Below, piece after piece: positions 3,001 through 35,098 of a stretch of 55,310 bases of DNA. The notes under the pieces are model-generated. The model searched no databases and was not told the origin of the DNA. It saw nothing but the letters and a program-made list of their open reading frames with translations. Made by a program: the position numbers and the translations under genes. The number at the start of each line of letters is the position of its first letter. Position 1 is the first letter of the stretch. Source of the stretch: a virus (lineage: Duplodnaviria; Caudoviricetes); IMG/VR virus record IMGVR_UViG_3300012665_000810, positions 1-55,310 of that record; one strand, given 5' to 3'.

Positions 3001-6000
3001 GGTAGTCTCGTTTAATATTAAGATAGTTAGGAGTTAACGGTGTTCCATCCCCTCTATATATTTGATAATCATAAAAACTATCGAGTATGTTATCAGGCAC
3101 ACCTATATTAAAAGATATTTCTAACTTTTCACCAGCTGGACTTAGTGTAATTAAAGAACCAATCGCCCAGTTATGACTTGTCCAGTACATAAATTCTTTT
3201 GCACTAGTCAGCCAGTTTTGTGTTACTTTGTTTTCGCTATCGTATCGATTAAAAGTAAATCCTTTTGATAGCAAGTATTTTTCATAGCCAAATATAAAAT
3301 CAATTACTGATTGAATTGTTGGTAAGATTGTTCCGTAGTTTAATTTGGATATTGAATTAGTATTAAACGTTCTTCGACTCAGTGCTTCAACAGCATTCTT
3401 TTTAGGTAAAGATGGTAATTTTTTCCAGACCGCTAAAGAAAAAACATCTGCCGAAGTATGACTAGATAAACTTCTGTAAAATTCATTTTTGTATTGGGCA
3501 ATAATTCCGTTACCATAAAACTGATTTGAAGACCATGTTACGAATTCTTCACTAATGCCGCCTACAGAAATTGTACCGTCAGATTGACTTGTTACTGGTT
3601 CATAATAATAAAAGAATGGCTCAAGACTGTCATACCCTTTAATCTTCCATCCTCTATCTGTTTTCTCGACAATTACGCCACTGTAAACAATTGTTTCGAT
3701 TGGTGCGCTAACATTAAAGAAAATTTCTTGATTTTCGTTTGGAATGAAAATACTGCTTGAAGTTGATTTAGGGTTCTTACTATCTAGAATAAATTTTTGT
3801 TGAGTTTGATCAACAAACCCGCTCATTCTATACGTTAGCGCAACATCGATAGATTCCAAATAGGTTGTTAATTCAGTTGTTGATAAGTTTTGACTTTTTA
3901 AATAATCAACAATATACGATACCAATCCTGAAGTTTCCGATCCGCCTAACGATGATGTTAACAAATCTTCAACTCGAATAAAAAGATCAGTGTTAGCGTT
4001 TACTGTCTGCCCTAATTTATTAGTTTTTACTTTTGATCTATCAAGACTTTGTCCAATAAAATCAAGTGGTCTTAACAAACATAATGCTATAATTTGTGCA
4101 AAAGGAAATTCGCTACTAATATACCAAGTGTGTTCAACTGGGCCTTGATCGCCTAATTTAAAATCTCCTTCATTATTAATTAAAGAAAAATTTTGTGCTA
4201 GGTTTGAATCAAGCGGGCTTAATAATTTTCCGTCACCGTCAACAGGAATGTGAGACATTAAACTAGGGCGTTGATATCTAGAAGAAATACCTGCTCTAGC
4301 ACCTTGTCTAATTATTCCATTTGTTAGATCTTCCCATAAAATTAAATTATTAGAAGTATACGGCGCAGGACCATACTCACTTTCCCACCATGTTGGCTTT
4401 TCACTAAATCCTAACATTTCCCAAGGACATGTGTGCGGACGATCAGTGTCATAAAACCATTTATAAACTCCGCGCCACCAACCAGGTAAGTTTTCCAATC
4501 CGGTCGGATCTGCCATTTTAGAATAGGTATATGTGAATGAATTTTCAGTATCAAAATAATCATTAGCAATGTAATCAATATTTGTATCCGAAATCCATTT
4601 TAAAAATTCTTGATTAATAATGTTTGTAAGTTGTTCTCTTCTGCCAAACACTCCGGTGTTATAATAGCCACCAAGAATACGATCGTTATCGTGCAGTTCT
4701 TCGTTGTATTCAACTTTAATATTATTATAAATTCTTAATTCAAGTTCAAGAATAGCATCATCACGATAGTCTCCAAATGCAGAAATAATACTGCCGTCGT
4801 GGCCTTGAATAACTTCTTTAGGCTCTATGTAGGTATCATCAAGAAACTTCCTAGGTAGATATTTTTTATACAGTCCTAGTTTAGTTGGAGTTTGTGGAAT
4901 ATGATTAAATGCTGTTGATGTGTATTCTCTAATTTCTAAATTATCACCTTCAACAAGGTCAATGGTTAAGTTGACAAAAGAAAATGTTGAATTAAATTCA
5001 TAATCTGTAGTATTGATTAATTGTCTATCATTAAGATATAGATATACAGCTTTGCTACTTAACGTATTAAGATCAAATTGTTGAGACAATGAAAATGTTT
5101 TTATTCCAGGATCTTCAACAGTATAGTATACAGCAGTAAATGCTCCGCTACCGATCATATCAGAATCAGAGAAAGGATTATTAATATTCTTAGCTTTGGT
5201 AATTTCTATGATTGCTTCATCAACAAAATTTGCAATATTACTAGTATAGTTTAAATTTGCAACTGTGTTTAAAAATTTATTTTTAAAATCTGAATAAGAT
5301 TTTTTAGCGTACCGAATAGACTTAATAAGATTGATTTTTTTATCAACCAACAACATTGTTGCAACCGGGCTTAAATTTTCATGTTTTAAAAATCGTTTAG
5401 TGTGCGACTGGTACCCAGAGATGTCTCTTAAGTTACTAGACGATCCTAATACATTTCCTGTAAATCCTTCAAAAAATTCTAATCCAGTAGTTACATGATC
5501 AGCTGCTTGGCCAAATGTAAAAGATTCTAAATTTTGGTTTAGTGGATTTTTTTCTAAGCCGACAGGAATTTCATAGTATCCTGTATCTGGCGGTTGATCG
5601 CAAAATACCTTAATAACAATAACATCGTCAATTGCAAAGGTTGTATTAAATGTAAATGTGTTTGAGATTCGTGTGTATGTTGCTGATAATTTTTCTCCGT
5701 TTAGGTAAAAAAAGATTTTATCATTGGCAGTTAACAAGTCCCAATTAACTGTTGTAAGCTCAAGTGTTGATGTTGCTGAATTAATTTTTTGATAATCAAT
5801 TATCGGCTGCAAATAAGTTTGAGCTGTTTCAAGCCAACCGTTGCCATATTCTTCAGTCACATTGAATTTATAAAAACCGGTCGCTAATTTAATTGTTGGA
5901 CTTGTTTGATCTGATTTATAAGTGAATGTGTCAGTGTCCCAATTATTAGTGAATAAAATATCTCCTACATTGTCGATATTCAAATAACTGATTGCAAATC

Positions 6001-7921
6001 CTAAATGTTTATCAGCAACTCCTGTAGGATTAGTTGTATAACTAATAAGTTTTGTTCCGGTGAACGTTGATACAGGGTAAGTTTCAATATCAGAAAAGCT
6101 AACACCGTTTTTATCAAAGACATCAAATAATGGTGCTTGATTGACTTGCGTTTTTTGTTGGCTCAGATTCCAAGACGTTCCATCAAAGTAATACATCTCT
6201 CCTTGATTGGCTTTTCCTCTTCGGATCAGAACTGTTTCCCCGGATATCGACACTGTATCGTCGATTGTTTTTAATGTTATCTGTTTTTGTCCCTGGAAAA
6301 CAATAAAGCTAACTTCGTAAATTTGATTGTTAACTTGATTATCAGTATCAGCAACAACTAATATTCGGGCACCGTCAAATACATCTTCTCCGTCAATATT
6401 GTATCCTGTACTACCTTCAATTTTAGAAAAAACGTCTGTAGTAAATGTGTCAATGTAATCGACTGTTTTTTTAGAGTAGCTACCGTGTTGATATAATTTT
6501 AAATCAGGAAGGAACTCTATAATAGGACGTTTTGCTCGTGTAGTTTCCGTTGATTCAAATGTTGAACCCGATATGGTATGAGCATACTCTAATACACTTC
6601 TGTGGAACCATCGATTATAACGACTCCACGGATTTGCGTCTCGACTGCTTTTTGCAATGGTAAGATAATCAAGAGCACCAGGATAAGACGATGCATCATC
6701 AAACGGTAACGAATCAAAACCTTCATTATCAAATAATACATCTGGAAAATTTTTATTTAAGACAGGAATAACTAACTCGTCAAACGCAGTTAAGGTAATG
6801 CTCGATCCTACGCCTTCGACTAACCAGTTACCTTTAGCATATTTTGTTGGCAATACTGTTCCACCAAATGATACAATAAGACCGTTAGTCAATACTATTC
6901 CATTACCGCTGGTGTATTCAACTTTGCCTACAATATCCTTTTCGATATCAAGTTTAGTATTTGAAATAATATCCTCAATTAAAAAGCGGCCGAATCTATT
7001 CGGATCTGTTCTGCTTTGATAATAAAGAACATCAGGAGCATCGTACGGTATTTCAAAAGTAACAGTTCCAACTTCAATGCCGTTGTTAGTAACTCCGTTG
7101 TCGTAATCTAACGCCTTTGGACTATTTGAAGATTCTAGGAATTCCCAATCCTGAGAATCAAGAGTAATCGTACTGCCATCGCCCGGATTAATTGGAGCCG
7201 TTGCCCTCCATAGCCCGCCATCGAATACTACTACTGAACCGGCAGGATATGCAAAGTCTGGATCGTAAAGTAATGATCCTGTGTCGTAAGCTGTTCTAAT
7301 TACAAATCCGTTTCCTGGAGCATTAACAACAAATTTATATTTTTGACCTCTATATAAGGTAATAGTTGGGTTATTTGTATACCCGTCTGGGAAGAAAATA
7401 AACGAACTTTGTTCAGACATTTTTACTCTGTATGAACTAGTTACTGTAGAATTTAATCCGTATACCCTAACCGGTGGCGGACCACTTGGAACCCAATAGT
7501 ACTCTCGATAATTAATAAACTTATCCCAATCAATTGGCGGATTCCATGAATAGTGCTTTTGGCTAGTAACTAGATCATCGCGTTCGTCAAGGTTACCAAA
7601 GAAAGTTAAAATATTTTTTAAATCTAGATAATCATAAAAATTTGTAGTCTTGCCATTAGTTTTTGTAACTACTCCTGGCTCTAACTGGTAGCGACTTCGC
7701 AATGTATTATCAGTATCTAAGTAAACATCTGTTCCATTAAATGTTTTTCCGTATCTACGGCCAACATACCCAACTGTTTTTTCTAAAACACCTGGTTGAA
7801 TTAATGGATCAAAGATTCCATTTAGAAATTTATCATTAGTGTCCGTTTGAAAAACCTGTGGTAAGAAATCAACAGTTCGTCTTATAGGAAGCTGACTTTT
7901 AGGAAATACTTTATTTGCCAT
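1..7921 (-). CDS. Giant baseplate wedge protein (T4 gp7-like position), >2640 aa, C-terminus outside the window
   Basis: Not in the ORF track because it has no stop in the window. ATG at 7921, 2 nt after the gp6-like stop; begins MANKVFPKSQLPIRRTVDFLPQVFQTDTNDKFL. The same frame reads SLTTPDWRLKQKLESFEEY at the left edge. The distal part has FG-GAP-like propeller repeats (e.g. GDQFGSSIVMSKDGSVLVVGAP near 540-610). Confidence 0.8.
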   Translation of the reverse strand, partial: MANKVFPKSQLPIRRTVDFLPQVFQTDTNDKFLNGIFDPLIQPGVLEKTVGYVGRRYGKTFNGTDVYLDTDNTLRSRYQLEPGVVTKTNGKTTNFYDYLDLKNILTFFGNLDERDDLVTSQKHYSWNPPIDWDKFINYREYYWVPSGPPPVRVYGLNSTVTSSYRVKMSEQSSFIFFPDGYTNNPTITLYRGQKYKFVVNAPGNGFVIRTAYDTGSLLYDPDFAYPAGSVVVFDGGLWRATAPINPGDGSTITLDSQDWEFLESSNSPKALDYDNGVTNNGIEVGTVTFEIPYDAPDVLYYQSRTDPNRFGRFLIEDIISNTKLDIEKDIVGKVEYTSGNGIVLTNGLIVSFGGTVLPTKYAKGNWLVEGVGSSITLTAFDELVIPVLNKNFPDVLFDNEGFDSLPFDDASSYPGALDYLTIAKSSRDANPWSRYNRWFHRSVLEYAHTISGSTFESTETTRAKRPIIEFLPDLKLYQHGSYSKKTVDYIDTFTTDVFSKIEGSTGYNIDGEDVFDGARILVVADTDNQVNNQIYEVSFIVFQGQKQITLKTIDDTVSISGETVLIRRGKANQGEMYYFDGTSWNLSQQKTQVNQAPLFDVFDKNGVSFSDIETYPVSTFTGTKLISYTTNPTGVADKHLGFAISYLNIDNVGDILFTNNWDTDTFTYKSDQTSPTIKLATGFYKFNVTEEYGNGWLETAQTYLQPIIDYQKINSATSTLELTTVNWDLLTANDKIFFYLNGEKLSATYTRISNTFTFNTTFAIDDVIVIKVFCDQPPDTGYYEIPVGLEKNPLNQNLESFTFGQAADHVTTGLEFFEGFTGNVLGSSSNLRDISGYQSHTKRFLKHENLSPVATMLLVDKKINLIKSIRYAKKSYSDFKNKFLNTVANLNYTSNIANFVDEAIIEITKAKNINNPFSDSDMIGSGAFTAVYYTVEDPGIKTFSLSQQFDLNTLSSKAVYLYLNDRQLINTTDYEFNSTFSFVNLTIDLVEGDNLEIREYTSTAFNHIPQTPTKLGLYKKYLPRKFLDDTYIEPKEVIQGHDGSIISAFGDYRDDAILELELRIYNNIKVEYNEELHDNDRILGGYYNTGVFGRREQLTNIINQEFLKWISDTNIDYIANDYFDTENSFTYTYSKMADPTGLENLPGWWRGVYKWFYDTDRPHTCPWEMLGFSEKPTWWESEYGPAPYTSNNLILWEDLTNGIIRQGARAGISSRYQRPSLMSHIPVDGDGKLLSPLDSNLAQNFSLINNEGDFKLGDQGPVEHTWYISSEFPFAQIIALCLLRPLDFIGQSLDRSKVKTNKLGQTVNANTDLFIRVEDLLTSSLGGSETSGLVSYIVDYLKSQNLSTTELTTYLESIDVALTYRMSGFVDQTQQKFILDSKNPKSTSSSIFIPNENQEIFFNVSAPIETIVYSGVIVEKTDRGWKIKGYDSLEPFFYYYEPVTSQSDGTISVGGISEEFVTWSSNQFYGNGIIAQYKNEFYRSLSSHTSADVFSLAVWKKLPSLPKKNAVEALSRRTFNTNSISKLNYGTILPTIQSVIDFIFGYEKYLLSKGFTFNRYDSENKVTQNWLTSAKEFMYWTSHNWAIGSLITLSPAGEKLEISFNIGVPDNILDSFYDYQIYRGDGTPLTPNYLNIKRDYQTVSIETTNTSDGIYFFKGFLVLKEHVAIFSDRTVFNDVIYDKTTGYRQERIKSRGFRTVDWDGDYTSPGFLYDNVNIQPWQPYVDYKLGDIVAYKAYSWVSQTNQQGLESFDNTKWSILDSTPSKALIPNFDYRINQFTDYYDLDSDGLESSQRDLGRHSVGYQTREYLQGLAEDNVTQFQLYQGFIRDKGTINAAVKVFDKLSKTTEDSIVLNEEWAFNVGTFGGVDQLKEIEFTIDKADLKINPQPILFTTTEPNAGIMDQYLRLPPSKFTKSATPFDINMLPKTDFDELQTAGYVKLDQVDYILKNRDEILNVNISEIKENDHFWITFDDYSWTVLRLNKKPLLAILDATKNSGSVEIFFNRIHNLSVGDIIGIQNVPNLTGFFKIVTVTQKTIFVEVDAGGLDPEVDQSTTIGIYGFTDARFTDKETLSSSAVAALATGSKLWIDNVNDAGWQVLEKNKIFTYTQIDNYGTTTPLGAGSAVIHADVLKQTIMSMPESSLVTTYLEGDLLQIKQIIIPETDLLPLIGDSFGSSLSTSSDNTWLMIGIPNMSQAVSYFMGEFNKNASYNKDDIVLFHGKLWKALESVQPDGSTSAGIDLGSKDWAPATTHTLGDSFARGVGPSRQGMVSVYKWTNNNWQLFKNILSPRPAEDELFGSKTTVGFDGNEYWMAVSAPGALKNRGRVYLYKFNGTEWIHHENSNYQGIYESGARYHAGSIVWWDDRLWQAQVDINEDSASDSTIAIESNDISIAAEWKQIDQVSTQSSLPTNIALVDDGSTLGIGLLSPTQKAELTKQGDQFGSSIVMSKDGSVLVVGAPDSDGAYYENYKGEWSRYQEYQVGDVIKFIENDISTGYYKLIDPRSWTDDTQYDSSLAYTSVNQRPENGDPWVSIGDSVFSSTGKVYVYQRDSSQVYQLKQTFTAQSLDVINDTGFIEQLFVGDKFGYAVDIDDSGKNIVVSSPMADINLQNQGAVYYFNTVSLTTPDWRLKQKLESFEEY

Positions 7922-17317: not shown

Positions 17318-18199
17318 ATGACTATAACTACTGTACCGAAGATAAAGTACTTGACAAACAAGGATCTATTAAAAGAGATCCATCTCAGCAAAAACACATA
17401 TTGTTCCTTTACTGACAAAGCATTTGCTGATTATGATATGATTGTCCCCAATTTGGCAAAGATTAATATTAGAACAATTGCCGAAGCTAAAAGAAACCGT
17501 GCAAGTCGATTGGCAAAACTAGCACATGAAGCTGCTGTACTAGCAACCGGTAAGAAACAAAGTGCCAAAGATTTTGAAATTGATTATAAGAAAATTGCTA
17601 AAACAGATGTAGTGTTTCGTGTAATGACATTTGAGCATGTTCCATTAGCACCGGGTCGCAAAAAGACTTTAAAGAATACTGCCGATAGTCATGAAAAAGT
17701 AAATTTTCCTCCATTCCAACATTGGAAATTTGACGACAACGACAATTTAATTTTAGTAGGCAAAAGTCACTGGAAGGGAGATTTTACTACAGGGACTTTT
17801 AATAAAGAGCACGGCATGATGACTAATAATCTAGCCCGTATGTTTATTAAACTTTGTGAGCGATATGCAACTAGAGGAAACGTCCGTGGATATACTTACA
17901 ACGATGAAATGCGTGGGCAAGCAATTTTACAGCTTACTCAAATTGGTCTACAGTTCGATGAAAGCAAATCTGATAATCCTTTTGCTTATTATACTGCTGC
18001 TGTTACAAATTCATTTGTTAGAATCATCAACATTGAAAAACGCAATCAAAATATCCGAGACGACATACTCGAAATGAATGGAATGAATCCAAGTTGGACT
18101 AGACAGAACAGTGGTGGCGGAGCAAATACCGCTGCCGGACCAACAACTATCACTACAGGTGGAGCAAGTATCGACGGCGGTGGAGGAGATTGGGATTGA
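17318..18199 (+). CDS. gp55: Late-transcription sigma factor, gp55-like
   Basis: YLTNKDLLKEI at the N-terminus and GYTYNDEMRGQAI...FDESKSDNPFAYYTAAVTNSFVRIINIEKR resemble T4 gp55; upstream of gp47/gp46 as in T4. Confidence 0.85.
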   Translation: MTITTVPKIKYLTNKDLLKEIHLSKNTYCSFTDKAFADYDMIVPNLAKINIRTIAEAKRNRASRLAKLAHEAAVLATGKKQSAKDFEIDYKKIAKTDVVFRVMTFEHVPLAPGRKKTLKNTADSHEKVNFPPFQHWKFDDNDNLILVGKSHWKGDFTTGTFNKEHGMMTNNLARMFIKLCERYATRGNVRGYTYNDEMRGQAILQLTQIGLQFDESKSDNPFAYYTAAVTNSFVRIINIEKRNQNIRDDILEMNGMNPSWTRQNSGGGANTAAGPTTITTGGASIDGGGGDWD

Positions 18200-18240: not shown

Positions 18241-19251
18241 ATGTCATTATTCAAAAAAGTAGCTTGTTTTACCGATATACATTTCGGACTCAAATCTGGT
18301 AGTAGAACTCATAATCAAGATTGCGAAGATTTTGTTTCTTGGTTCTGTGAAACTGCCAAAGCACAAGGTTGCGAAACTGCAATCTTCCTAGGTGACTGGC
18401 ATCATAATCGTAGTACTACAGACGTAAGTACTATGAACTATACGGTGTCAAACTTAGAACGTCTAAGCCAATCTTTCGAAAAAGTATATTTCATTCTAGG
18501 CAATCACGATTTATTCTATAAAGACAAGCGAGAAATTAACTCTATTGAGTTTATGCGCCTGTTTCCAAACGTTATTCCTATCAAGGAAACACTAGTAGAG
18601 GGCGATGTTACTATCATGCCTTGGCTAGTAGGCGACGAATGGAAGGATGTTCCTAAGATGAAGAGCCGTTATATCTTTGGACATTTAGAATTACCCTTGT
18701 TCTATATGAATGCTATGGTACAAATGCCAGATCATGGACAATTACAAGCAGGACATTTTGGTAATCAGGAATATGTGTTTAGTGGTCACTTCCATAAACG
18801 TCAAAGCAAGGGTAATGTAACCTATATTGGCAACGCATTCCCACACAACTACGCAGACGCCGGCGACGACGATCGCGGTATGATGATATTAGAGTGGGGT
18901 GGTAAGCCGGAATATCATACATGGCCTGATCAACCCACATTTAGAACATACAAGTTAAGTCAGATTATTGATGCTCCGGATGCATTGTTACGTAAAAAGA
19001 TGCATTGTCGAGTAACTATTGACCTTCCTATTAGTTTCGAAGAAGCAAACTTTATTCGTGAAACATTTATACCACAGTATAATTTACGTGAACTAATGTT
19101 AATTCCTGAAAAAGTAGAAGTTGAATCAAATTCAACGCCCGTCGACATTACATTTGAAAGTGTAGATACAATTGTTATGAACCAAATTAATGCTATCGAT
19201 AGTTCAGCATACGACAAAAATCTATTATTGGATATCTATAAAGATCTATGA
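18241..19251 (+). CDS. gp47: Recombination endonuclease subunit (Mre11/SbcD-like)
   Basis: Metallophosphoesterase motifs DIHFG, GDWHH, GNHD, GHLE, SGHFH. Confidence 0.95.
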   Translation: MSLFKKVACFTDIHFGLKSGSRTHNQDCEDFVSWFCETAKAQGCETAIFLGDWHHNRSTTDVSTMNYTVSNLERLSQSFEKVYFILGNHDLFYKDKREINSIEFMRLFPNVIPIKETLVEGDVTIMPWLVGDEWKDVPKMKSRYIFGHLELPLFYMNAMVQMPDHGQLQAGHFGNQEYVFSGHFHKRQSKGNVTYIGNAFPHNYADAGDDDRGMMILEWGGKPEYHTWPDQPTFRTYKLSQIIDAPDALLRKKMHCRVTIDLPISFEEANFIRETFIPQYNLRELMLIPEKVEVESNSTPVDITFESVDTIVMNQINAIDSSAYDKNLLLDIYKDL

Positions 19252-21026
19252 TTAAAATTAAAAACCTAACTGTTCGTAATTTTATGAGCGTGGGCAATCA
19301 GACCCAAGCCATCGACTTTGACAAAGGACAACTCACTTTAGTCTTAGGTGAAAACCTAGATCTAGGTGGTGATGATAGTGGAGCTCGCAATGGCACTGGT
19401 AAGACTACTATTATTAACGGACTTAGCTATGCTATATATGGTCAAGCTCTAACAAATATCAAACGTGATAACCTTATTAACAAGATCAACAGCAAAGGCA
19501 TGTTGGTAACTGTTACTTTTGAAAAAGATGGCGTTGAATATCACATCGAACGAGGTCGAAAACCTAACGTCTTAAAATTTAGTATTAACGGTCAAGAACA
19601 ACAATTGAGTGATCTAGATGAAAGTCAAGGCGACAGCCGCGAAACTCAAAAGTCTATCGAAGAAATGATTAACATGAGTCACGAGATGTTTAAACATCTT
19701 GTGGCGTTGAACACCTATACTGAACCGTTTCTAGCTATGAAGGCGGGTGATCAACGTAGTATTATTGAGCAGTTGCTAGGTATTACTTTGCTATCAGAAA
19801 AAGCAGAAGCTCTTAAAGAACAAATTCGTTTAAGTAAAGATCATATTCAGACTGAAAACACAAGAATTGAAACTGTTAAGGCTAGCAATGCACGTATTCA
19901 ACAGAGTATTGATGCATTAGAAAGAAAACAAAGTATTTGGGATGATACTAAAGAAAAAAATATTGAGAATCTATTAAAAAGTATCGATGTATTAAGCCAT
20001 ATTGATGCAGAAGCTGAAATTGCAGCACATAAAGAACTTGCTGCATTTAACCAAAAGCGTAAAGACATCGACGATTTAACTAAGGCTATCAGTCGTGCAG
20101 AGTTAGACGAAGCACGAGAGACAAAACAAATTGAAAAACTTAAAAAAGAAATTAAAGATTTAGAAGATCATAAATGTTATGCATGCGGTCAAGACCTTCA
20201 CGACAGTAAACATGAAGAAGTACTAGAATCTAAAAAGAAAGCTCTGCAAGAATCTGCATTGCAAGCATTGAGTACAAACACACAATGGATAGAACTAACT
20301 GACGCTCTTAAAGAATTAGGAGAACTAGGCAATTGTCCTAAAGTGCAGTATGATACATTAGAAGAAGCACTTAATCATAAAAACACAGTTATTAGTTTAG
20401 AAAAAGACCTAGTGTTAAAAGAAGCTGAAACTAATCCGTACTTAGAACAAATTGAAGAGTTGCGTAAAACTGCTGTACAAGAAATTGACTGGGAAGCTGT
20501 TAACGAATTAACAAGGATTAAAGATCACCAAGAGTTCCTATACAAACTATTAACAAATAAAGATAGTTTTGTTCGCAAACGAATCATTGATCAAAATCTA
20601 GCATTCTTAAATCAGCGATTAACCTATTATCTTGATAGAATTGGACTTCCGCACATTGTTGAGTTTCAGAATGATCTAAGTGTTATTATTACACAGTTAG
20701 GTCAAGATCTTGATTTTGATAATCTTTCACGTGGAGAGCGTAATAGATTAATCTTATCTATGAGCTGGGCTTTCCGAGATGTATGGGAGAATCTGTATCA
20801 TCCTATTAATTTACTGTTCATCGACGAATTAGTAGATTCGGGCATGGATGCAAGCGGGGTAGAATCTAGTATTGCTGTGCTTAAGAAAATGACTCGTGAG
20901 CGTAACAAGAATGTATTCTTAATTTCACATAGAGATGATCTAACTAGTCGTGTTAATCATGTTCTTAAAGTTATTAAGGAGAACGGATTCACTAGTTATA
21001 GCAACGATGTGGAGATTGTTGCTTGA
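19248..21026 (+). CDS. gp46: Recombination ATPase subunit (Rad50/SbcC-like)
   Basis: Walker A NGTGKTT, coiled coil with zinc hook CYACG, signature LSRGE, Walker B LLFIDE, H-loop ISHR. Confidence 0.95.
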   Translation: MIKIKNLTVRNFMSVGNQTQAIDFDKGQLTLVLGENLDLGGDDSGARNGTGKTTIINGLSYAIYGQALTNIKRDNLINKINSKGMLVTVTFEKDGVEYHIERGRKPNVLKFSINGQEQQLSDLDESQGDSRETQKSIEEMINMSHEMFKHLVALNTYTEPFLAMKAGDQRSIIEQLLGITLLSEKAEALKEQIRLSKDHIQTENTRIETVKASNARIQQSIDALERKQSIWDDTKEKNIENLLKSIDVLSHIDAEAEIAAHKELAAFNQKRKDIDDLTKAISRAELDEARETKQIEKLKKEIKDLEDHKCYACGQDLHDSKHEEVLESKKKALQESALQALSTNTQWIELTDALKELGELGNCPKVQYDTLEEALNHKNTVISLEKDLVLKEAETNPYLEQIEELRKTAVQEIDWEAVNELTRIKDHQEFLYKLLTNKDSFVRKRIIDQNLAFLNQRLTYYLDRIGLPHIVEFQNDLSVIITQLGQDLDFDNLSRGERNRLILSMSWAFRDVWENLYHPINLLFIDELVDSGMDASGVESSIAVLKKMTRERNKNVFLISHRDDLTSRVNHVLKVIKENGFTSYSNDVEIVA

Positions 21027-21253
21027 CAACCGAAGCTCACGATAAAATGATTGCTGCTTTTCAGGAATATTTTAAGTGGCAAGAACGATTTGAATACAAA
21101 GGCTCAGACGAAGCAGGCATTAAGGCACGATATTGGCTATCAGAAATACGCAATGAAGCAAGTACCCGCAGAATAGAAATACAGGCAAAGCGTGAAGAAC
21201 GCAAAAAATCCAGAAAAGGCATGATAGGCAGACCGCCCAAGGTAACTAAATGA
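21023..21253 (+). CDS. Small basic protein, Hc1 (histone H1-like) family-like, with an AT-hook-like tail
   Basis: F..KG...AG.KAR..LSEI......RR.EIQ pattern; C-terminal KKSRKGMIGRPPK; TTG start overlapping the gp46 stop. Confidence 0.55.
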   Translation: MTTEAHDKMIAAFQEYFKWQERFEYKGSDEAGIKARYWLSEIRNEASTRRIEIQAKREERKKSRKGMIGRPPKVTK

Positions 21254-21688
21254 GTGCAATGGACGTATCAAAATCAACCCGTAAATGAAATACCAGAAGG
21301 CTATATTGGCTTTGTTTACATAATCACGAATACCGTAACCGGACAGAAGTACATAGGCAAGAAATTAGCACAATTCAAACGTACTAAACCCCCACTCAAA
21401 GGCAAAAAACTTAAAAGAAGAAGCACAGTAGAAAGCGATTGGCGCGAATACTGGGGTTCATCTGATAGGTTAAACGCAGACGTCCAAGCATTAGGTCCGG
21501 AAAACTTCACAAGAGAAATACTTTACCTTTGCAAATCCAAGGCAGAACTAAGTTATTTAGAGGCTAGAGAGCAGTTTGAACGCAGAGTTTTAGAAACAGA
21601 TGACTATTATAATGGCATTATAAACGTCAGAGTTGGCGGTTCAAACATACTTAGACAACGTCTTTTAGAACAATCTCAGGCAAAATAA
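21254..21688 (+). CDS. Stand-alone minimal GIY-YIG endonuclease (144 aa, GTG start)
   Basis: GFVYIITN...KYIGKK, YWGSS, a candidate catalytic Glu in SYLEAREQF and YYN; Lys/Arg-rich insert KRTKPPLKGKKLKRRS; no separate DNA-binding domain. Confidence 0.85.
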   Translation: MQWTYQNQPVNEIPEGYIGFVYIITNTVTGQKYIGKKLAQFKRTKPPLKGKKLKRRSTVESDWREYWGSSDRLNADVQALGPENFTREILYLCKSKAELSYLEAREQFERRVLETDDYYNGIINVRVGGSNILRQRLLEQSQAK

Positions 21689-21699
21689 AGCGGTATTTT

Positions 21700-22062
21700 C
21701 AGCTAGCGCAGGCTTAATTTCGTGCGCTCTATACCTGGATCTCGGATCACAGGGACGGAAAACCTTGCCGCAAAGGTGCTTAACCACTACCCGAAAGGAT
21801 GACGATCGCTACTAAGACCTGCGATTTGGTTATTTGAATAGAAAAACAAGGCAAAAAGAAGGGAGAGAAACCCTTAGGTTAATGCGTATGTTAGCGTATA
21901 TGTATTAATCCACCGTCATATTGACTGAGCTCGAGGTACCGGATGACCGCCTCTGTAACTGCTTTAACGCTAAGTGTACTGTGCAACTCGCATAATGCTT
22001 CTTGACCCGTAACAGGGTTAAGTGTGACTGAACAATCTGCATAATACTTAATGCTTCGCATT
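21700..22062 (+). ncRNA. Candidate large structured non-coding RNA, family not recognised
   Basis: 485 nt intergenic gap in a gene-dense genome. About ten nested helices, a GAAA tetraloop, G-U pairs that work only on the + strand, and a 7-bp loop pseudoknot (see findings). Boundaries approximate. Confidence 0.7.
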
Positions 22063-22118
22063 TATAACTTCGATATTGTTCTAAGAAAGAAAAATGCGTT
22101 GAGCGTAAGCGAAAACGC

Positions 22119-22141
22119 AAATGAGCTTTAGCTCATTTTTT
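22119..22141 (+). terminator. Intrinsic terminator-like hairpin
   Basis: AAATGAGC-TTTA-GCTCATTT running into a T tract; closes the gp47-GIY-YIG-RNA unit. Confidence 0.6.
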
Positions 22142-22143
22142 AC

Positions 22144-22151
22144 AATAAATA
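22144..22151 (+). promoter_or_regulatory. Late promoter (AATAAATA)
   Basis: TAAATA core 22 nt upstream of ATG 22174. Confidence 0.55.
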
Positions 22152-22173
22152 AAAAACAATCGGAATTCATCAA

Positions 22174-23295
22174 ATGCGTATAAATGATATTTTAATCGAA
22201 AACAAACAAGTAACTGAAGCTCCTTTAGGTATGCTCAGTAAGTTAGGGCATGGAGTTAAGAGTGCTTTTGGTAGTGGTAAATCAAAAGGCGTTCTAGATA
22301 CAGGCAATGCTTCAAATCAATTAAAACAAGATTATATGAAGATGCTTGGTGCAACTGGACAAGAAGCTGAATCCGATAATCTGATTGCTTTCCTACAAAA
22401 AGCAGGATATCCTGTTGATAGAGTTAAAAAATCATTAGGTGGTGCGCAAGCTAATCCTGTTGAACCTACTATGGATCCTGAACCAGGCACAGCACCAGCT
22501 ACTGGTCGCCCACAAGGAGGTGGTAAAGTAGCTGGACAACAAAGTCAAACTCCTAGTGCTGTTAAAAAACGTGATGCACGTAGCGGCAAACCTACTGCTC
22601 CTCCGTCAAATGCTGGCGCAAACGCATTTGGTCAAATGGCAAAACAGCTTACAACACCTAATGATGCTGCTGCAAAAGTAACAACTAAACCTACTCCTGT
22701 TACAACAACTCCTGGTTCTACTAATCCGGGCGGTGCTGTTGATAATTTCAAACAGCAAATGGCCAATAACACTGAACTTGATCGTCAAAGAAAGCAAAAA
22801 GAAATAGACCAGGGCAACTCCACTTCAACTAAAAGCAAGGCGTTAGGTCCAAAGGGCCGTGAAACACTAGCACGTTTAGGTAAACAAAGCCAAGTTAGAT
22901 CTAGCGGTAAACAAGGTTCATTGGACCTTAACAGTCGCAAGAACGCAGGCAATAGTATCCTTGAAGCACTTAGTGATAAACAAATTGATGCAGCATTCTT
23001 AATGGCTGTTCAAGATAAGGCCAAAGCAGGCGGTAGCAGTCAACCAAGCAGTCAGTCTGCTCCTGCGGATAGCGGAGATAGCAGTGGTGGGTCAAGTGCA
23101 TTAGGCACATTAGCTAGATCAGCAATGGGATTACGTTCAAGATCTTCATCTTCGGGCAGAGATTCTGATAGTAGTAGTCCGCTAGATGGGATTGATTTAG
23201 CTGCACTAAAGATGGGATTGACTAACGTAGTTAATGACAGACCTATAGATAACTCTGCCAAACGAGAAATTCAAAAACTTATCAAGAAACTTTAA
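22174..23295 (+). CDS. Low-complexity late protein, probable internal head protein
   Basis: Own late promoter; N-terminus MRINDILIE...VTE resembles T4 capsid-targeting/gp21-cleaved leaders; Pro/Gly/Ser-rich body. Confidence 0.5.
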   Translation: MRINDILIENKQVTEAPLGMLSKLGHGVKSAFGSGKSKGVLDTGNASNQLKQDYMKMLGATGQEAESDNLIAFLQKAGYPVDRVKKSLGGAQANPVEPTMDPEPGTAPATGRPQGGGKVAGQQSQTPSAVKKRDARSGKPTAPPSNAGANAFGQMAKQLTTPNDAAAKVTTKPTPVTTTPGSTNPGGAVDNFKQQMANNTELDRQRKQKEIDQGNSTSTKSKALGPKGRETLARLGKQSQVRSSGKQGSLDLNSRKNAGNSILEALSDKQIDAAFLMAVQDKAKAGGSSQPSSQSAPADSGDSSGGSSALGTLARSAMGLRSRSSSSGRDSDSSSPLDGIDLAALKMGLTNVVNDRPIDNSAKREIQKLIKKL

Positions 23296-24414: not shown

Positions 24415-24442
24415 TGCGCATTTTTTGGGGTCTAAATTAATT

Positions 24443-27400
24443 ATGGCAGATGTATATGGCGCTATTGGTGATCAACCAGTAGAACTAAACAACGCAGCAA
24501 CCGAAGCAACGATGAAAGCTCTGCTGGCCACTATGACGGCTATGCTGAATAGCCAGTCAAAAGGTACCAAAAAAGACAAAAAAATACAAACAGACCTTGA
24601 AGCCGAGTTACGTAGATTAGCCAAGGCCAGTAAAGACTCAGCTAGAGCTAGAGAAAAAGAAACAGACGCAGTTAAAGACAACACTGAAGAGCAGGTAAAA
24701 AACACCGCGGCACAGAAAAAAGCTGCCGATGCCCAAAAAAAATACATCAATGAATTAGAAGATTCGATTGTTATCCTAGAAAAACTAGCAAATGGATTAG
24801 AGCAAGCCGTTACTGGATTATCTGGTATGATGAGCAGTTTTTCTACCTTAGGCAATAGTGTAACTTCGGCTGCGGCAACGCTTAACCATATTCCAATAGC
24901 AGGCAGAATGCTATCTAGTGTGTTTGGTACCGTTGCTCAAGCGGCCGATCGAAGTATGAAATCCTTTCAGCAATCAGCTAGTGTTGGTGCAAACTTTGGT
25001 GGCAGCATTACTGACATGATTGATTCGGCCACCGGTGCTGGACTAACATTTGATGCTTTTAGTTCTATCATTGCAAAGAATGGCGAAAGTGTAGCTTTAC
25101 TTGGCGGTGGTTCTGCAGATGGTGCAAAACGATTAGGTGAACTAGGTAAACAAATTCGTAAAAGCGGAGTAGCCGATGAACTGTATCGCATGGGATACTC
25201 CACTGAAGATATCAATAACGGGTTAGCAACGTTTGGTGGTAGACTTGCTAAAGGCGGCGCCCTACAAAAAATGACCACTGAACAGATTGCATCTGTTACT
25301 GGTAACTATCTTAAAGAATTAAATGCAGTAGCAACGCTTACAGGACAAAGTAAAGAAGCATTGCAAGAACAAGAAAATGCTCGCATGGCCGATGCGCAAT
25401 ATTTAAATTTAAAAAATAAACTAGATGCAGACGGCCAAAAGAATTTAGAATTGTTAATGGCTAGCATTCCAAAAGAAATGCAACAAGGTGCCAAAGAAGT
25501 TTTGGCTACAGGAACAGCTACTACAGAAGCAGGACAACAATTTTTAGTCTTTATGAAAAATTCTGGTAGAAGTTTGCAATCTTTAGGAAAGACTGCTGAA
25601 AGAACCGGAACTATCACTACAGATGCTGTAATTCAAAATGCAAATCTTATACAATCTGAAGGAAAGGCATTATCAAAATCTAGTTTAGGAGGCGTTGCTG
25701 CAAAGTTTATTCCAGAACTAAACGGAATGATGGTAGCATCAAATACACTTGCATCACGTCAAACAGATTTAGGTACAGAGATAAAAGGACAGATTGCAGC
25801 AGCAGCAGAGCGCAAGAGACAAGAACAAGAATTAAAAGATAAAGGACTAGATCCTGCATCGATGGAAAAGTTTAAACAACAGATTGCAGAAACTAGTAAT
25901 CAATTTACAAAAATTATTAAAGACAACATGCCAATGTTAATGAGTGCGTTTACTAGTCTTGCAAACTTTACTCAAACATTCCTTCTTCCAGTGTTTTCGT
26001 TTTTAGCTGAAAATATTAAAACAGTTGTTGCTACTTTTATTGCTCTTAAGGTTGCTCAGTTAGCATATAAAGCATCTCTTGCAATTGAAAAAGCTAAATC
26101 AGCCAAGTACAATGGATCACCTGGAAATCCAATGCACGTAACAACTGACGGCAAAGGCGGCTTAGGCGACGGGCCTGACGGTAAGGGCAAAAAAGGATCT
26201 AAAGGTTTAAAGTCGCTTGGCCGAATTGGCGGAGGAGTTGCTGCGGTAACTGCAATTGCAGGTATGGCTATGGAACTAAGTGAAGTTAACGATCAATTAA
26301 AGGAAGGCAAAATATCTGAAGATGAAGCCAAACAGAAAAAATCAGAAGCAGTCGGCGGCGGAGTAGGCGGAGCTGCAGGTGGCGCGGGTGGCGCAATGGC
26401 AGGTGCAGCTATTGGTACATTAATATTGCCTGGTGTTGGTACAGTACTTGGTGGAATTATTGGTGGTGCAGTAGGCAGCATGGGTGGTGAATACGTTGGC
26501 CGAAAAGCTGCTGGCAAATACACTGAACCAAAATCGGATATAAAAGGTTTAGGAAAAGTTGCAGCCCAGTTTGAATCTGGCGGGAACGCTGGAACGGTAT
26601 CAAGTGGCCACGGCGACTTTGGAGGTAAGAGTTATGGCGCATTTCAGTTATCGAGCAAGACAGGTGACGTTGACAAGTTCTTACAAAAATCTGGGTATGC
26701 AAATCAATTCCAAGGTATGCAAGTTGGCTCAGCAGCATTTGACGCCCAATGGAAAAAACTTGCAAAGGAAGATACTAAATTTGGTGAAGCTCAGTCAGCA
26801 CATGCTAAAACAACTCACTATGATCCGCAAATGGCAAAATTACAAAATAGCGGAATTGATTTGTCTAAAAAAGGATTTGGCGTACAAGAAGCAATCATGT
26901 CAACTGCCAATCAATATGGTGCAAACACTGAAACTATAATCAAAGCTCTTAAGGGTAAAGATACCAATAAGATGACTGATGAAGAAATCATCAACTCTAT
27001 TCAAGATTATAAAAAAGAAAACGTCAAAACAAACTTTAAGAGCAGTTCAGAAGCAGTTAAAGCAGGTGTTGAAAAACGTATCAATCAAGAACGAGAAGCA
27101 CTACTTGCTGCAAATAAGAGTGGTGGTGTAGTAGCAGGAACTGAAACAGCTAAGAAAGAAGACAAGCCAACAGCTTCAACGACCCAAACAGCATTAGCTA
27201 AACCAAAAACACCAGAAACTGCAACAGCCACAGCAGTAAACACTCCAACAGCTTCGGCTGTCCAAACAGCATTAGCTAAACCAAAAACACCAGAAGTTGC
27301 TTCAACAGCCGGCCTAGCAGCTAATCCATTAGAAGCATTAAAACAAGGGCTAGCAGGCAATCAACAAACATCATTGGGAGGTCCTGCTACAGGTCCCGCA

Positions 27401-27562
27401 GGTTCTCAAGAATCGCCGGCTGTACTACTTTCTAACTTAAATAGTAAGATGGAAACATTGATTCAAATTCAACTTGGTGCAAAAGAAACTGGAGAAAAAC
27501 AATTGAGAAAACCTACAGGTGGCGCAAATATGGATATGTTCACTAACGTAGCTATTGCTTAA
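24443..27562 (+). CDS. Tape-measure protein with a glycine-zipper segment and a C-terminal muramidase domain
   Basis: Long Ala/Gly/Lys-rich helical protein; hydrophobic GGAAGGAGGAMAGAAIGTLILPGVGTVLGGIIGG; FESGG...GDFGGKSYGAFQL lysozyme-like motif. Likely start is ATG 24443 (MADVYG) rather than TTG 24425. Confidence 0.8.
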   Translation: MADVYGAIGDQPVELNNAATEATMKALLATMTAMLNSQSKGTKKDKKIQTDLEAELRRLAKASKDSARAREKETDAVKDNTEEQVKNTAAQKKAADAQKKYINELEDSIVILEKLANGLEQAVTGLSGMMSSFSTLGNSVTSAAATLNHIPIAGRMLSSVFGTVAQAADRSMKSFQQSASVGANFGGSITDMIDSATGAGLTFDAFSSIIAKNGESVALLGGGSADGAKRLGELGKQIRKSGVADELYRMGYSTEDINNGLATFGGRLAKGGALQKMTTEQIASVTGNYLKELNAVATLTGQSKEALQEQENARMADAQYLNLKNKLDADGQKNLELLMASIPKEMQQGAKEVLATGTATTEAGQQFLVFMKNSGRSLQSLGKTAERTGTITTDAVIQNANLIQSEGKALSKSSLGGVAAKFIPELNGMMVASNTLASRQTDLGTEIKGQIAAAAERKRQEQELKDKGLDPASMEKFKQQIAETSNQFTKIIKDNMPMLMSAFTSLANFTQTFLLPVFSFLAENIKTVVATFIALKVAQLAYKASLAIEKAKSAKYNGSPGNPMHVTTDGKGGLGDGPDGKGKKGSKGLKSLGRIGGGVAAVTAIAGMAMELSEVNDQLKEGKISEDEAKQKKSEAVGGGVGGAAGGAGGAMAGAAIGTLILPGVGTVLGGIIGGAVGSMGGEYVGRKAAGKYTEPKSDIKGLGKVAAQFESGGNAGTVSSGHGDFGGKSYGAFQLSSKTGDVDKFLQKSGYANQFQGMQVGSAAFDAQWKKLAKEDTKFGEAQSAHAKTTHYDPQMAKLQNSGIDLSKKGFGVQEAIMSTANQYGANTETIIKALKGKDTNKMTDEEIINSIQDYKKENVKTNFKSSSEAVKAGVEKRINQEREALLAANKSGGVVAGTETAKKEDKPTASTTQTALAKPKTPETATATAVNTPTASAVQTALAKPKTPEVASTAGLAANPLEALKQGLAGNQQTSLGGPATGPAGSQESPAVLLSNLNSKMETLIQIQLGAKETGEKQLRKPTGGANMDMFTNVAIA
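27167..27295 (+). repeat. Intragenic direct repeat, 78-nt period
   Basis: 34-bp exact copies at 27184-27217 and 27262-27295 (QTALAKPKTPE twice), each preceded by ccaacagcttc. Confidence 0.9.
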
Positions 27563-34052: not shown

Positions 34053-34078
34053 CAAAAAGGCTCTTCGGAGCCTTTTTG
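34053..34078 (+). terminator. Intrinsic terminator after the capsid gene (bidirectional form)
   Basis: CAAAAAGGCTC-TTCG-GAGCCTTTTTG with a C(UUCG)G tetraloop. Confidence 0.9.
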
Positions 34079-34096
34079 TTTGACTTAAATATCAGT

Positions 34097-34363
34097 ATGG
34101 AAATAGATTTTGATCAGGATTTTTCTGAACTACGCAAACAGTTTAGTGCGTGGCGAAAACGCTTTCCTATGTTTACTCATGATGTAAGCCAAATAGAACA
34201 CATCATTGAACAGCATATACAAAATTTTGCTATTGCTGGAATCCACTACAGACAAACGCACAGTAAGTCTTATTTAGAAAAAGCCCAGCATGAACTAGAC
34301 GAAATTAAGAGGGTAGTTGCTATGGTTGAAAAAATTGAACTTATGGCAATGTTAGCACGTTGA
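34097..34363 (+). CDS. Hypothetical helical protein (88 aa)
   Basis: Likely start ATG 34097 (MEIDFDQ), 5 nt after CTTAAATA (34084-34091). Confidence 0.6.
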   Translation: MEIDFDQDFSELRKQFSAWRKRFPMFTHDVSQIEHIIEQHIQNFAIAGIHYRQTHSKSYLEKAQHELDEIKRVVAMVEKIELMAMLAR

Positions 34364-34456
34364 TAAATACAATGTCTATTAAAGAACTTGCATACGGCAA
34401 GACTTATGGGGTAACCATCCTCGTAGACCTAAAACGTCATATTAAGGAGAAACAAA
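34362..34456 (+). promoter_or_regulatory. Late promoter GATAAATA plus structured 5' leader
   Basis: Promoter 34362-34369; hairpins at 34387-34401 and 34405-34425; SD AAGGAG at 34444. Confidence 0.55.
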
Positions 34457-35098
34457 ATGGGACGTCCATTAAAGAAAGATGTGCGAGGTACAGACGTACT
34501 TGGCCTAAACAATCTTGGTAACACAGGTATCACAGTAAGCGGCTATTTTGATGGTGCGCTTTCTACAGCATATTCTATTATCAAACAACGCGGTGCTAAC
34601 ACATTCGTTGTAGCTAAAAAAGAAACATTCACAGCAACTACATCAAACGGTGCTTATACGCTAACAAGTATGAGTGATCAAATTGAAGTAACAATTGGCG
34701 ACGAAATTTCTGGTGCAGGTATTCCAACAGGTGCTAGAGTTGCTAGCATTGACAGCGCAACACAAGTAACAATGACTTTAGCTGCGACAGCATCTGCTAG
34801 CGTTACAGTTACACACTTTGGTGTATTTAAAACTGGTAAACTAGTTGACACAACTCCAAATGCTGAAGGTGAAATCCTAATGCAAGGCTCAACAGCTGGT
34901 ACAACAGATCAAAGTTTAGTTCCTATTGCTAAACTATCACGAAGAATTGCTTACGGATTCCCAACAGTTCCAGTACTAAGTGGCGGATTTAATCGAGGTG
35001 AAGATAGTAATACTTCTACTAACCACGATGCTACTCGTTATACTTGGTTTTTAGAAAACGATTCAACAGCTGATTATATTGTTTTAACAGCAATCTAA
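34457..35098 (+). CDS. Virion structural protein (possible head decoration)
   Basis: Late promoter, strong SD, Thr/Gly-rich beta composition, MGRPLKK start. Confidence 0.55.
   Translation: MGRPLKKDVRGTDVLGLNNLGNTGITVSGYFDGALSTAYSIIKQRGANTFVVAKKETFTATTSNGAYTLTSMSDQIEVTIGDEISGAGIPTGARVASIDSATQVTMTLAATASASVTVTHFGVFKTGKLVDTTPNAEGEILMQGSTAGTTDQSLVPIAKLSRRIAYGFPTVPVLSGGFNRGEDSNTSTNHDATRYTWFLENDSTADYIVLTAI

What the first reader, a model, noticed from the sequence alone, without database searches (positions are those of the whole stretch)
21254..22141. Minimal GIY-YIG nuclease followed directly by a large, ornate ncRNA: candidate new nuclease-RNA system
Seen in sequence: the largest intergenic gap in the window starts at the GIY-YIG stop and folds on the + strand into nested helices. 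These are AGCGCA/TGCGCT (21705-28); CCTG-GATC/GATC-A-CAGG (21734-53); and a long-range GACGG/CCGTC (21754-58 with 21913-17). That helix encloses ACCTT/AAGGT, a three-way junction (TAACCA/TGGTTA closing CC-GAAA-GG and GATCGC/GCGATT), AAGGG/CCCTT and a ~14-bp G-U-rich hairpin (21877-21911). The apical TTAGCGT of that hairpin (21891-97) is perfectly complementary to ACGCTAA (21967-73), a pseudoknot. GAGG/CCTC with an inner CGG-ATGA-CCG and a terminator-like hairpin follow. Established: GIY-YIG homing endonucleases such as I-TevI rely on an appended DNA-binding domain, and nuclease-plus-structured-RNA loci (IscB/HEARO, TnpB) turned out to be RNA-guided. Inference: this 144-aa enzyme has only a Lys/Arg-rich insert, so the co-transcribed RNA may scaffold, guide or inhibit it. 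Alternatively the RNA could be an R-loop replication primer working with gp46/47.
Basis: partly seen in the sequence, partly recalled or inferred. Interest (0 to 1): 0.9.

Follow-up and report, generated by a model that had tools for sequence, protein, structure and literature searches.

The report
Large pseudoknotted phage RNA after GIY-YIG
A conserved, intricately folded RNA of about 450 bases follows a small nuclease gene in many freshwater T4-like phages; its first third is an already catalogued RNA motif of unknown function, and no test here shows that it guides the nuclease.

Summary
The RNA is real. The 485-nt gap after the GIY-YIG gene (21689-22173) is non-coding. It folds better than all 100 shuffles (z -3.9). 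It is conserved in more than 130 distinct viral loci. The long-range GACGG/CCGTC helix is not supported.

The 5' third (21701-21835) is Rfam RF01718, Polynucleobacter-1 (106 bits, cut-off 37). That motif has no known function. New here are:
- a pseudoknot that starts 2 nt after the stop codon;
- a second pseudoknot in the middle domain;
- a 3' domain with no Rfam relative, holding two 14-nt boxes that change in parallel.

All 100 loci found through the 3' domain that could be scored carry the GIY-YIG gene directly upstream. The link is not obligate:
- two complete cultured phages have the nuclease, with the same basic insert, but not the RNA;
- two bacterial genomes have the 5' motif without the nuclease.

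I read it as a modular, stable RNA made from the nuclease transcript's 3' end, whose partner is unknown. The guide reading is kept at about 0.1.

The parts
21023..21253 (+). orf76, a small basic protein. It ends where the GIY-YIG gene begins.
   Evidence: No Pfam or PHROG family. Conserved at 35-95% identity in relatives. No counterpart next to the Melnitz or C48C1 GIY-YIG genes.
21254..21688 (+). GIY-YIG nuclease domain alone, 144 aa, with a Lys/Arg-rich insert between the YIG motif and the conserved Arg.
   Evidence: PF19835 SegE_GIY-YIG 2.2e-36, residues 3-123. phrog_447. Core residues invariant in 29 sequences. AlphaFold2 mean pLDDT 75. Best Foldseek match is the I-TevI catalytic domain 1ln0, probability 0.99.
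21690..21693 (+). PK0 5' strand (GCGG), 2 nt after the stop codon. It pairs with 21768-21771 in the P3 loop.
   Evidence: 4 of 4 pairs change on both sides, 96.4% of cells paired. Variants are readable. This element lies outside the Rfam model.
21701..21835 (+). 5' domain = Rfam RF01718 Polynucleobacter-1. It comprises P1 21705-28, P2 21734-53, P3 21762-77 and the junction P4 21781-21832 with P4a 21791-98 and P4b 21804-26.
   Evidence: 106.1 bits, cut-off 37, model positions 1-141 of 141. 15 of 15 relatives score 81-120 bits. Covariation.
21859..21875 (+). P5 hairpin (AAGGG/CCCTT).
   Evidence: 4 of 4 pairs change on both sides.
21877..21911 (+). P6 long hairpin. Its loop, 21891-97, is the 5' strand of PK1.
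   Evidence: 12 of 12 pairs change on both sides, 96% paired, many G-U pairs.
21967..21973 (+). PK1 3' strand (ACGCTAA), pairing with 21891-97.
   Evidence: 6 of 7 pairs change on both sides, 97.5% paired. Mutual information.
21916..21919 (+). PK2 5' strand (TCAT), pairing with the ATGA loop at 21943-46.
   Evidence: 21917/45 TA 51, CG 49. 21918/44 GC 55, AT 41. 21919/43 TA 74, GC 12. 3 of 4 pairs change on both sides.
21926..21965 (+). P9: outer helix 21926-30/21961-65, GAGG/CCTC 21933-36/21950-53, inner GG/CC around the ATGA loop.
   Evidence: helices 5-7. Some relatives carry an extra hairpin inserted after 21958.
21984..21997 (+). Box A (CAACTCGCATAATG).
   Evidence: Positions 21985, 21990 and 21991 change together with 22034, 22039 and 22040.
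22001..22022 (+). P10 hairpin between the boxes.
   Evidence: helix 1. 93.7% Watson-Crick pairs in 101 sequences. The base before the AAG of its 3' strand tracks the linker base at 21920.
22033..22046 (+). Box B (CAATCTGCATAATA), 49 nt after box A.
22050..22062 (+). P11 hairpin with a TTC loop.
   Evidence: helices 2-3. Stem variants are visible.
22063..22094 (+). A/T-rich linker, variable in length and sequence.
22096..22138 (+). P12 (22096-22118, with the conserved GAGCG-NAAG-CGAA core) and the terminal hairpin P13 (22119-22138).
   Evidence: helices 4-7. In P13, 7 of 8 pairs change on both sides. A T-rich tail follows in only 5 of 96 relatives.
22144..22151 (+). AATAAATA, which resembles a T4 late promoter (consensus recalled, not from a call). 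It marks the start of the next transcription unit.
   Evidence: ATAAATA present in 83 of 105 representatives, median 21 nt before the next ATG. Nearly invariant.
22174..23295 (+). Downstream gene p373. It is not part of the RNA and marks its outer limit.
   Evidence: No family. Only the N-terminus is conserved among relatives.

Best explanation
What it is. The gap encodes one plus-strand, non-coding RNA region of about 450 nt (21689 to about 22140), built from three tandem folded modules:
(1) A 5' domain that is the Rfam motif Polynucleobacter-1. Here it is extended by a pseudoknot (PK0) between the 4 nt that follow the GIY-YIG stop codon and the P3 loop.
(2) A middle domain with two pseudoknots (PK1 and PK2). 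It faintly resembles the Rfam motif cow-rumen-2.
(3) A 3' domain with no catalogued relative. Two near-identical 14-nt boxes each precede a hairpin, followed by a variable A/T linker and two closing hairpins.

Shown:
- the fold, the strand and the lack of coding capacity;
- the domain limits;
- wide conservation in freshwater T4-like phages, always directly after the GIY-YIG gene and before a late-promoter-like AATAAATA.

Inferred mechanism:
- The RNA is transcribed as the 3' continuation of the gp46-orf76-GIY-YIG message. No room is left for a promoter after the stop codon.
- It folds as it is made. PK0 at its 5' edge and the hairpins at its 3' edge protect it, so it persists as a stable RNA.
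- It acts through conserved unpaired nucleotides on a partner that is not the neighbouring nuclease.
- The two boxes most likely present the same recognition sequence twice to one kind of partner, a nucleic acid or a protein.
- The modules can be separated. The 5' module works alone in bacterial mobile DNA, and some phages lack the 5' module or the 5' and middle modules.
For: Fold and strand:
- (see the observation check).
- In the helices G-U cells outnumber A-C cells 806 to 283. The contrast is sharper in the well-aligned helices: 28.2 vs 0.5% in P4b, 18.0 vs 2.7% in P6, 11.7 vs 0.2% in P9a.

Non-coding:
- The longest stop-free stretch has a median of 69 aa, against 67 aa when shuffled.
- The length of the stretch aligned to the window's minus-strand ORF (21905-22120) is spread evenly over the three classes modulo 3.

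Identity of the 5' domain.

Spread:
- Of 136 distinct loci, 123 have all four parts that were searched for.
- GIY-YIG identity in these loci runs from 50 to 99%, while the RNA pattern still matches exactly.

Co-transcription:
- PK0 begins 2 nt after the stop codon, and in L039 and L277 it lies inside the ORF's end.
- RNA-library contigs cross the stop codon in X3 (21667-21874), X5 (21575-21738, continuing to 22033) and X6 (21604-21788).

3' limit: a conserved closing hairpin followed by ATAAATA in 83 of 105 representatives.

Modularity:
- Among the 53 distinct loci that were found through the GIY-YIG gene, 2 lack the 5' and middle domains and 2 lack the 5' domain.
- In L074 a 92-aa ORF takes their place.
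- RF01718 stands alone in bacterial loci.

Two boxes, one partner:
- 21990/22039 are GG 52 and AA 48 of 101.
- On a tree built from the other columns, 21 of 21-22 changes fall on the same branch. The figures are 16 of 16 changes at 22034 (21 at 21985) for 21985/22034, and 6 of 6 for 21991/22040.
- Control columns share only 1-3 branches with 21990. These controls include the P10 pair that lies between the boxes.

Not the nuclease.
Against: - No transcript ends were seen. Only assembled contigs were available, and DNA carried into RNA libraries cannot be excluded.
- No partner was found. No complementary stretch lies within -450 to +530 nt or on the same strand of the fetched loci.
- Strict adjacency to the GIY-YIG gene (100 of 100) fits a functional tie as well as it fits plain conserved gene order.
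- The window's record is only about 16% of a genome, so a partner encoded elsewhere could not be sought.
- The only signal that links two domains is the association of linker base 21920 with the P10 pair: 69 of 97 fit, 28 do not. Whether the three modules form one particle is open.
- Stability and persistence are inferred from structure alone.
Confidence: 0.45

Rival explanations
1. Nuclease partner. The RNA binds the GIY-YIG protein, which lacks a DNA-binding domain, and scaffolds, guides or inhibits it.
For: - 100 of 100 scorable loci found through the RNA have the GIY-YIG gene directly upstream.
- The RNA starts at the stop codon.
- The protein is only the catalytic domain plus a basic insert.
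- It is better conserved than gp46: 82-99% against 55-97% identity in the same loci.
- The boxes carry positions that vary between lineages under a constraint, as a specificity element would.
Against: - Melnitz (64% identical in the alignment) and C48C1 keep the nuclease and its basic insert. Their complete genomes have no RF01718 at E <= 1 and no B-box within 2 mismatches.
- RF01718 occurs in two bacterial genomes with no GIY-YIG gene within 1.5 kb.
- No column of the GIY-YIG ORF reached mutual information above 0.25 with the variable box positions.
- No hypervariable guide-like end was seen. The only hypervariable stretch is an internal A/T linker.
- No Rfam guide-RNA family matches.
Confidence: 0.12
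2. Cis-acting 3' element of the early message. The fold protects the gp46-orf76-GIY-YIG mRNA from 3' exonucleases, ends early transcription before the late gene, or couples termination of GIY-YIG translation to RNA folding through PK0.
For: - It lies at the boundary between a plus-strand replication-gene block (gp55, gp47, gp46) and a gene with its own late-promoter-like motif.
- PK0 lies within reach of a ribosome at the stop codon.
- Closing hairpins are conserved.
Against: - About 450 nt with three pseudoknots and long invariant unpaired stretches is far more than such tasks need.
- The T-rich tail expected of an intrinsic terminator is present in only 5 of 96 relatives.
- The parallel change of the two boxes has no place in this model.
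Confidence: 0.2
3. One or more modules are self-cleaving or ligand-sensing RNAs (ribozyme or riboswitch-like). They process or control the transcript. In bacteria the same 5' module would act as a leader of a small downstream ORF.
For: - Junctions, pseudoknots and invariant unpaired nucleotides are typical of such RNAs.
- Weinberg 2010, Table 1, rates the motif as probably cis-regulatory, with switch status unknown (passages seen).
- The bacterial copies lie in mobile DNA beside an integrase-family gene.
Against: - No known ribozyme or riboswitch family matches at E <= 10.
- In the phage the next gene has its own promoter motif behind two hairpins.
- Nothing here tests cleavage or ligand binding.
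Confidence: 0.12
4. Replication origin or R-loop primer working with gp46/47.
For: It lies next to gp46/gp47. An A/T-rich variable stretch sits at 22063-22094.
Against: - Selection preserves RNA helices with many G-U pairs on one strand. That points to a folded free RNA, not a hybrid with DNA.
- sigma-70-like promoter matches are not above chance: 16 found, 16.8 expected.
Confidence: 0.04

Closest known systems
Polynucleobacter-1 RNA motif (Rfam RF01718; Weinberg et al. 2010, PMC2864571, passages of Table 1 seen)
   Same: Positions 21701-21835 match the whole 141-position model at 106 bits. 15 of 15 relatives match at 81-120 bits. The habitat is fresh water in both cases.
   Different: - Here it is only the first third of a conserved structured region of about 450 nt.
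- It carries a 5' pseudoknot that the model does not include.
- It sits after a gene's stop codon in T4-like phages, not in a presumed 5' UTR of Burkholderiales genes.
- The paper's supplementary description could not be read, because supplements are closed.
cow-rumen-2 RNA motif (Rfam RF02947)
   Same: The middle domain aligns to the full model. It shares a hairpin with a UUAGC loop, the block CCG(C)CAU, a GGAUGACC hairpin and GUAA.
   Different: The scores are 15.4 and 22.6 bits against a cut-off of 66. The long outer stem of the model is missing. This is a resemblance, not membership.
Nuclease-plus-RNA loci such as IscB with HEARO/omega RNA and TnpB with its RNA (recalled)
   Same: A large structured RNA lies directly beside a small nuclease gene in mobile or viral DNA.
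   Different: - The nuclease fold differs: it is GIY-YIG.
- No match to those RNA families.
- No variable guide end was seen.
- RNA and nuclease each occur without the other.
Large ornate RNAs of phages and prophages, GOLLD and ROOL (recalled)
   Same: Several hundred nucleotides, many helices and pseudoknots, phage-borne, function unknown.
   Different: No Rfam match to them. This RNA is smaller and modular, and it is tied to one gene neighbourhood.
I-TevI / Seg-type GIY-YIG homing endonucleases
   Same: The catalytic domain matches: PF19835 at 2.2e-36, and the best fold match is the I-TevI catalytic domain.
   Different: There is no DNA-binding domain. The place in the genome is fixed and conservation is very high, rather than the patchy spread of a mobile gene.

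Membership tests
Rfam RF01718 Polynucleobacter-1 | Covariance-model score at or above the gathering score (37 bits) over the whole model | tested here: met
   106.1 bits, positions 1-141 of 141. 15 of 15 relatives score 81-120 bits.
Rfam RF01718 Polynucleobacter-1 | Model helices kept by compensatory change | tested here: met
   5' alignment: 85.1% paired, 25 of 38 pairs change on both sides, 0 of 500 shuffles as high.
Rfam RF01718 Polynucleobacter-1 | Position in a presumed 5' UTR (rated probably cis-regulatory in Weinberg 2010, Table 1). This is a described feature, not a defining one. | tested here: not met
   The RNA starts 2 nt after the upstream stop codon. The next gene lies behind two hairpins and an ATAAATA motif.
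Rfam RF02947 cow-rumen-2 | Score at or above the gathering score (66 bits) | tested here: not met
   15.4 bits for the window. 22.6 bits for L289.
RNA-guided nuclease locus (IscB/HEARO, TnpB type) | The RNA matches the family's model | tested here: not met
   No such family at E <= 10 in 21200-22300.
RNA-guided nuclease locus (IscB/HEARO, TnpB type) | RNA and nuclease always occur together | tested here: not met
   From RNA to nuclease: 100 of 100. But the nuclease occurs without the RNA in 2 of 2 complete cultured genomes checked. The 5' motif occurs without the nuclease at 4 places in 2 bacterial genomes.
RNA-guided nuclease locus (IscB/HEARO, TnpB type) | A hypervariable guide segment at one end of a conserved scaffold | tested here: inconclusive
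   Both ends are conserved and paired. The only hypervariable part is the internal A/T linker at 22063-22094. The boxes vary at just three linked positions.
RNA-guided nuclease locus (IscB/HEARO, TnpB type) | The protein binds the RNA | not testable with these tools
   No protein-RNA prediction or assay was available.
GIY-YIG homing endonuclease (I-TevI / Seg) | GIY-YIG catalytic core with conserved Tyr, Tyr, Arg, Glu and Asn | tested here: met
   PF19835 at 2.2e-36. G19 F20 Y22, Y33 G35, R56, E103 and N120 are invariant in 29 sequences; assigning them to the catalytic roles rests on recall. Fold match to 1ln0.
GIY-YIG homing endonuclease (I-TevI / Seg) | Appended DNA-binding domain | tested here: not met
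   The protein has 144 aa and the Pfam domain covers residues 3-123.
GIY-YIG homing endonuclease (I-TevI / Seg) | Patchy, mobile distribution | tested here: not met
   The gene has the same neighbours in the fetched loci: gp46 upstream in most, orf76 in most of the closer relatives. Identity is 82-99% in the best 80 of at least 597 matches.
Intrinsic terminator (for hairpin 22119-22138) | G+C-containing hairpin followed by a U run | tested here: not met
   The hairpin is conserved. A T-rich tail follows in only 5 of 96 relatives. The consensus scan did not report the site.

The most novel reading that the evidence does not exclude
The two boxes are two copies of a specificity element that base-pairs with a nucleic-acid target whose sequence differs between phage or host lineages. 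The RNA then directs the neighbouring GIY-YIG nuclease, or another factor, to that target. This would be a new kind of RNA-directed system built on a GIY-YIG enzyme. The parallel changes at 21985/22034, 21990/22039 and 21991/22040 would be re-targeting events.
Probability: 0.08. Interest if true: 0.95.

Novelty: new variant of a known kind. Interest (0 to 1): 0.6.

Why it matters
- Context for an orphan motif. Polynucleobacter-1 has sat in Rfam since 2010 with no function. Two full-text searches found it named in one paper only. Here it gains a gene context, a missed pseudoknot, and about 300 further structured nucleotides in a phage group that is abundant in lakes.
- Size and conservation. 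An RNA with three pseudoknots that is conserved better than the proteins around it is a candidate for the small class of large bacterial and phage RNAs whose jobs are unknown. It is a compact target for structure work.
- An unusual signal. The two boxes change in parallel, keeping identity rather than complementarity, at up to 21 independent points on the tree. This gives a concrete handle for finding the partner.
- A caution. Adjacency alone does not make an RNA-guided nuclease.

Tried and rejected
- Phage database searches. blastn of the gap, and megablast of 10 kb around it, against 50,697 phage records found no match.
- Bacterial genome scan. Two of the loci (L153, L154) later proved to lie in genomes with true RF01718 copies. 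So those two genomes are not an unbiased sample.
- Family sample. In 151 genomes of G001's family only G001 itself had the motif. It was not found in those searched, which does not show absence.
- Solved structures by sequence. Nothing for the protein alone, and nothing below E 0.1 for a 29-sequence profile.
- T4 endonuclease II. My recalled idea that the enzyme is a relative of this stand-alone GIY-YIG got no support. It is not among the listed Foldseek matches.
- orf76. It has no counterpart beside the Melnitz or C48C1 nuclease genes.
- Promoter-like sites. 16 found against 16.8 expected.
- Boxes as a repeated promoter. GCATAAT occurs only 5 times in the window, and only the two boxes share the wider context.
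- Cis partner for the boxes. None was found.
- Antiparallel pairing of box A with box B. It was considered and set aside. It would favour A at 21990 with G at 22039, a combination seen in none of 101 sequences.
- RNAalifold on the whole alignment gave a partly garbled structure. I used helices set by hand and by mutual information instead.
- In the 101-sequence alignment PK0, P3 and P12 are misaligned and score poorly. The 23-sequence alignments are the basis for those helices.
- RNA runs. 14 rows on record as RNA hold about 0.2 of the sampled words. In the four runs laid, 20600-21040 had little cover and 22154-22800 almost none. These flanks are less conserved, so this says nothing about expression.
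- No tRNA or tmRNA gene in the window.
Full report
Setting. The window is an IMG/VR virus record of 55,310 bases, rated about 16% complete. Around the finding the plus strand carries these genes:
- a late sigma factor of the gp55 type (17318-18199);
- gp47-like (18241-19251) and gp46-like (19248-21026) recombination nuclease subunits;
- a 76-aa ORF (21023-21253);
- a 144-aa protein that is a SegE-type GIY-YIG domain and nothing else (21254-21688; PF19835 at 2.2e-36, residues 3-123).
Then come the 485-nt gap, a 373-aa protein of no known family (22174-23295) and a baseplate hub gene on the other strand. This is a T4-like myovirus.

Noticed in passing
window 34386-34459 (+): A second Rfam motif, freshwater-2 (RF02980; 56.4 bits, cut-off 49.9). 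It lies between ORF 34076-34363 and ORF 34457-35098, and its end overlaps that ORF's start codon. It looks like a 5' leader.
   Followed up: partly
window 2-7921 (-), 41666-47230 (+), 47288-55309 (+): Three giant ORFs of 2640 aa (open-ended), 1854 aa and 2674 aa (open-ended). They were not examined.
   Followed up: no
L353 and L355 (genome G002, one contig, about 9 kb apart); L354 and L356 (genome G001): Bacterial copies of RF01718 (47.6-96.9 bits). The copies in L353 and L355 lie beside DUF6641 genes, and L353 also beside a phage-integrase-family gene. No GIY-YIG gene is present. The setting looks like an integrative element.
   Followed up: partly
L074 3450-3728 (also L085): In two phage loci a 92-aa ORF with a C-terminal Cys-rich motif, plus about 330 nt of other non-coding DNA, replaces the 5' and middle RNA domains. 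The 3' domain is kept.
   Followed up: partly
window 22174-23295 and relatives: The gene after the RNA keeps a conserved N-terminus (M-[KR]-[IV]-x-[DE]-[IL]-[IL]..., read by eye). The rest is replaced or diverges beyond recognition between relatives.
   Followed up: no
window 24425-27562 (+): A 1045-aa protein with a C-terminal domain like that of the type VI secretion spike protein VgrG3 (PF21277, 5.9e-62) and tape-measure-like PHROG matches. It is probably a tail-associated cell-wall enzyme.
   Followed up: no
window 21023-21253 (+): orf76 ends in a Lys/Arg-rich tail with a GRP motif, which resembles an AT-hook by eye. It abuts the GIY-YIG start codon, so it could be a separate DNA-binding partner of the nuclease. 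No family was found.
   Followed up: partly
window 21935-21940: The invariant GGTACC inside the middle domain is self-complementary and could mediate RNA-RNA contact. It was only seen in the alignment.
   Followed up: no
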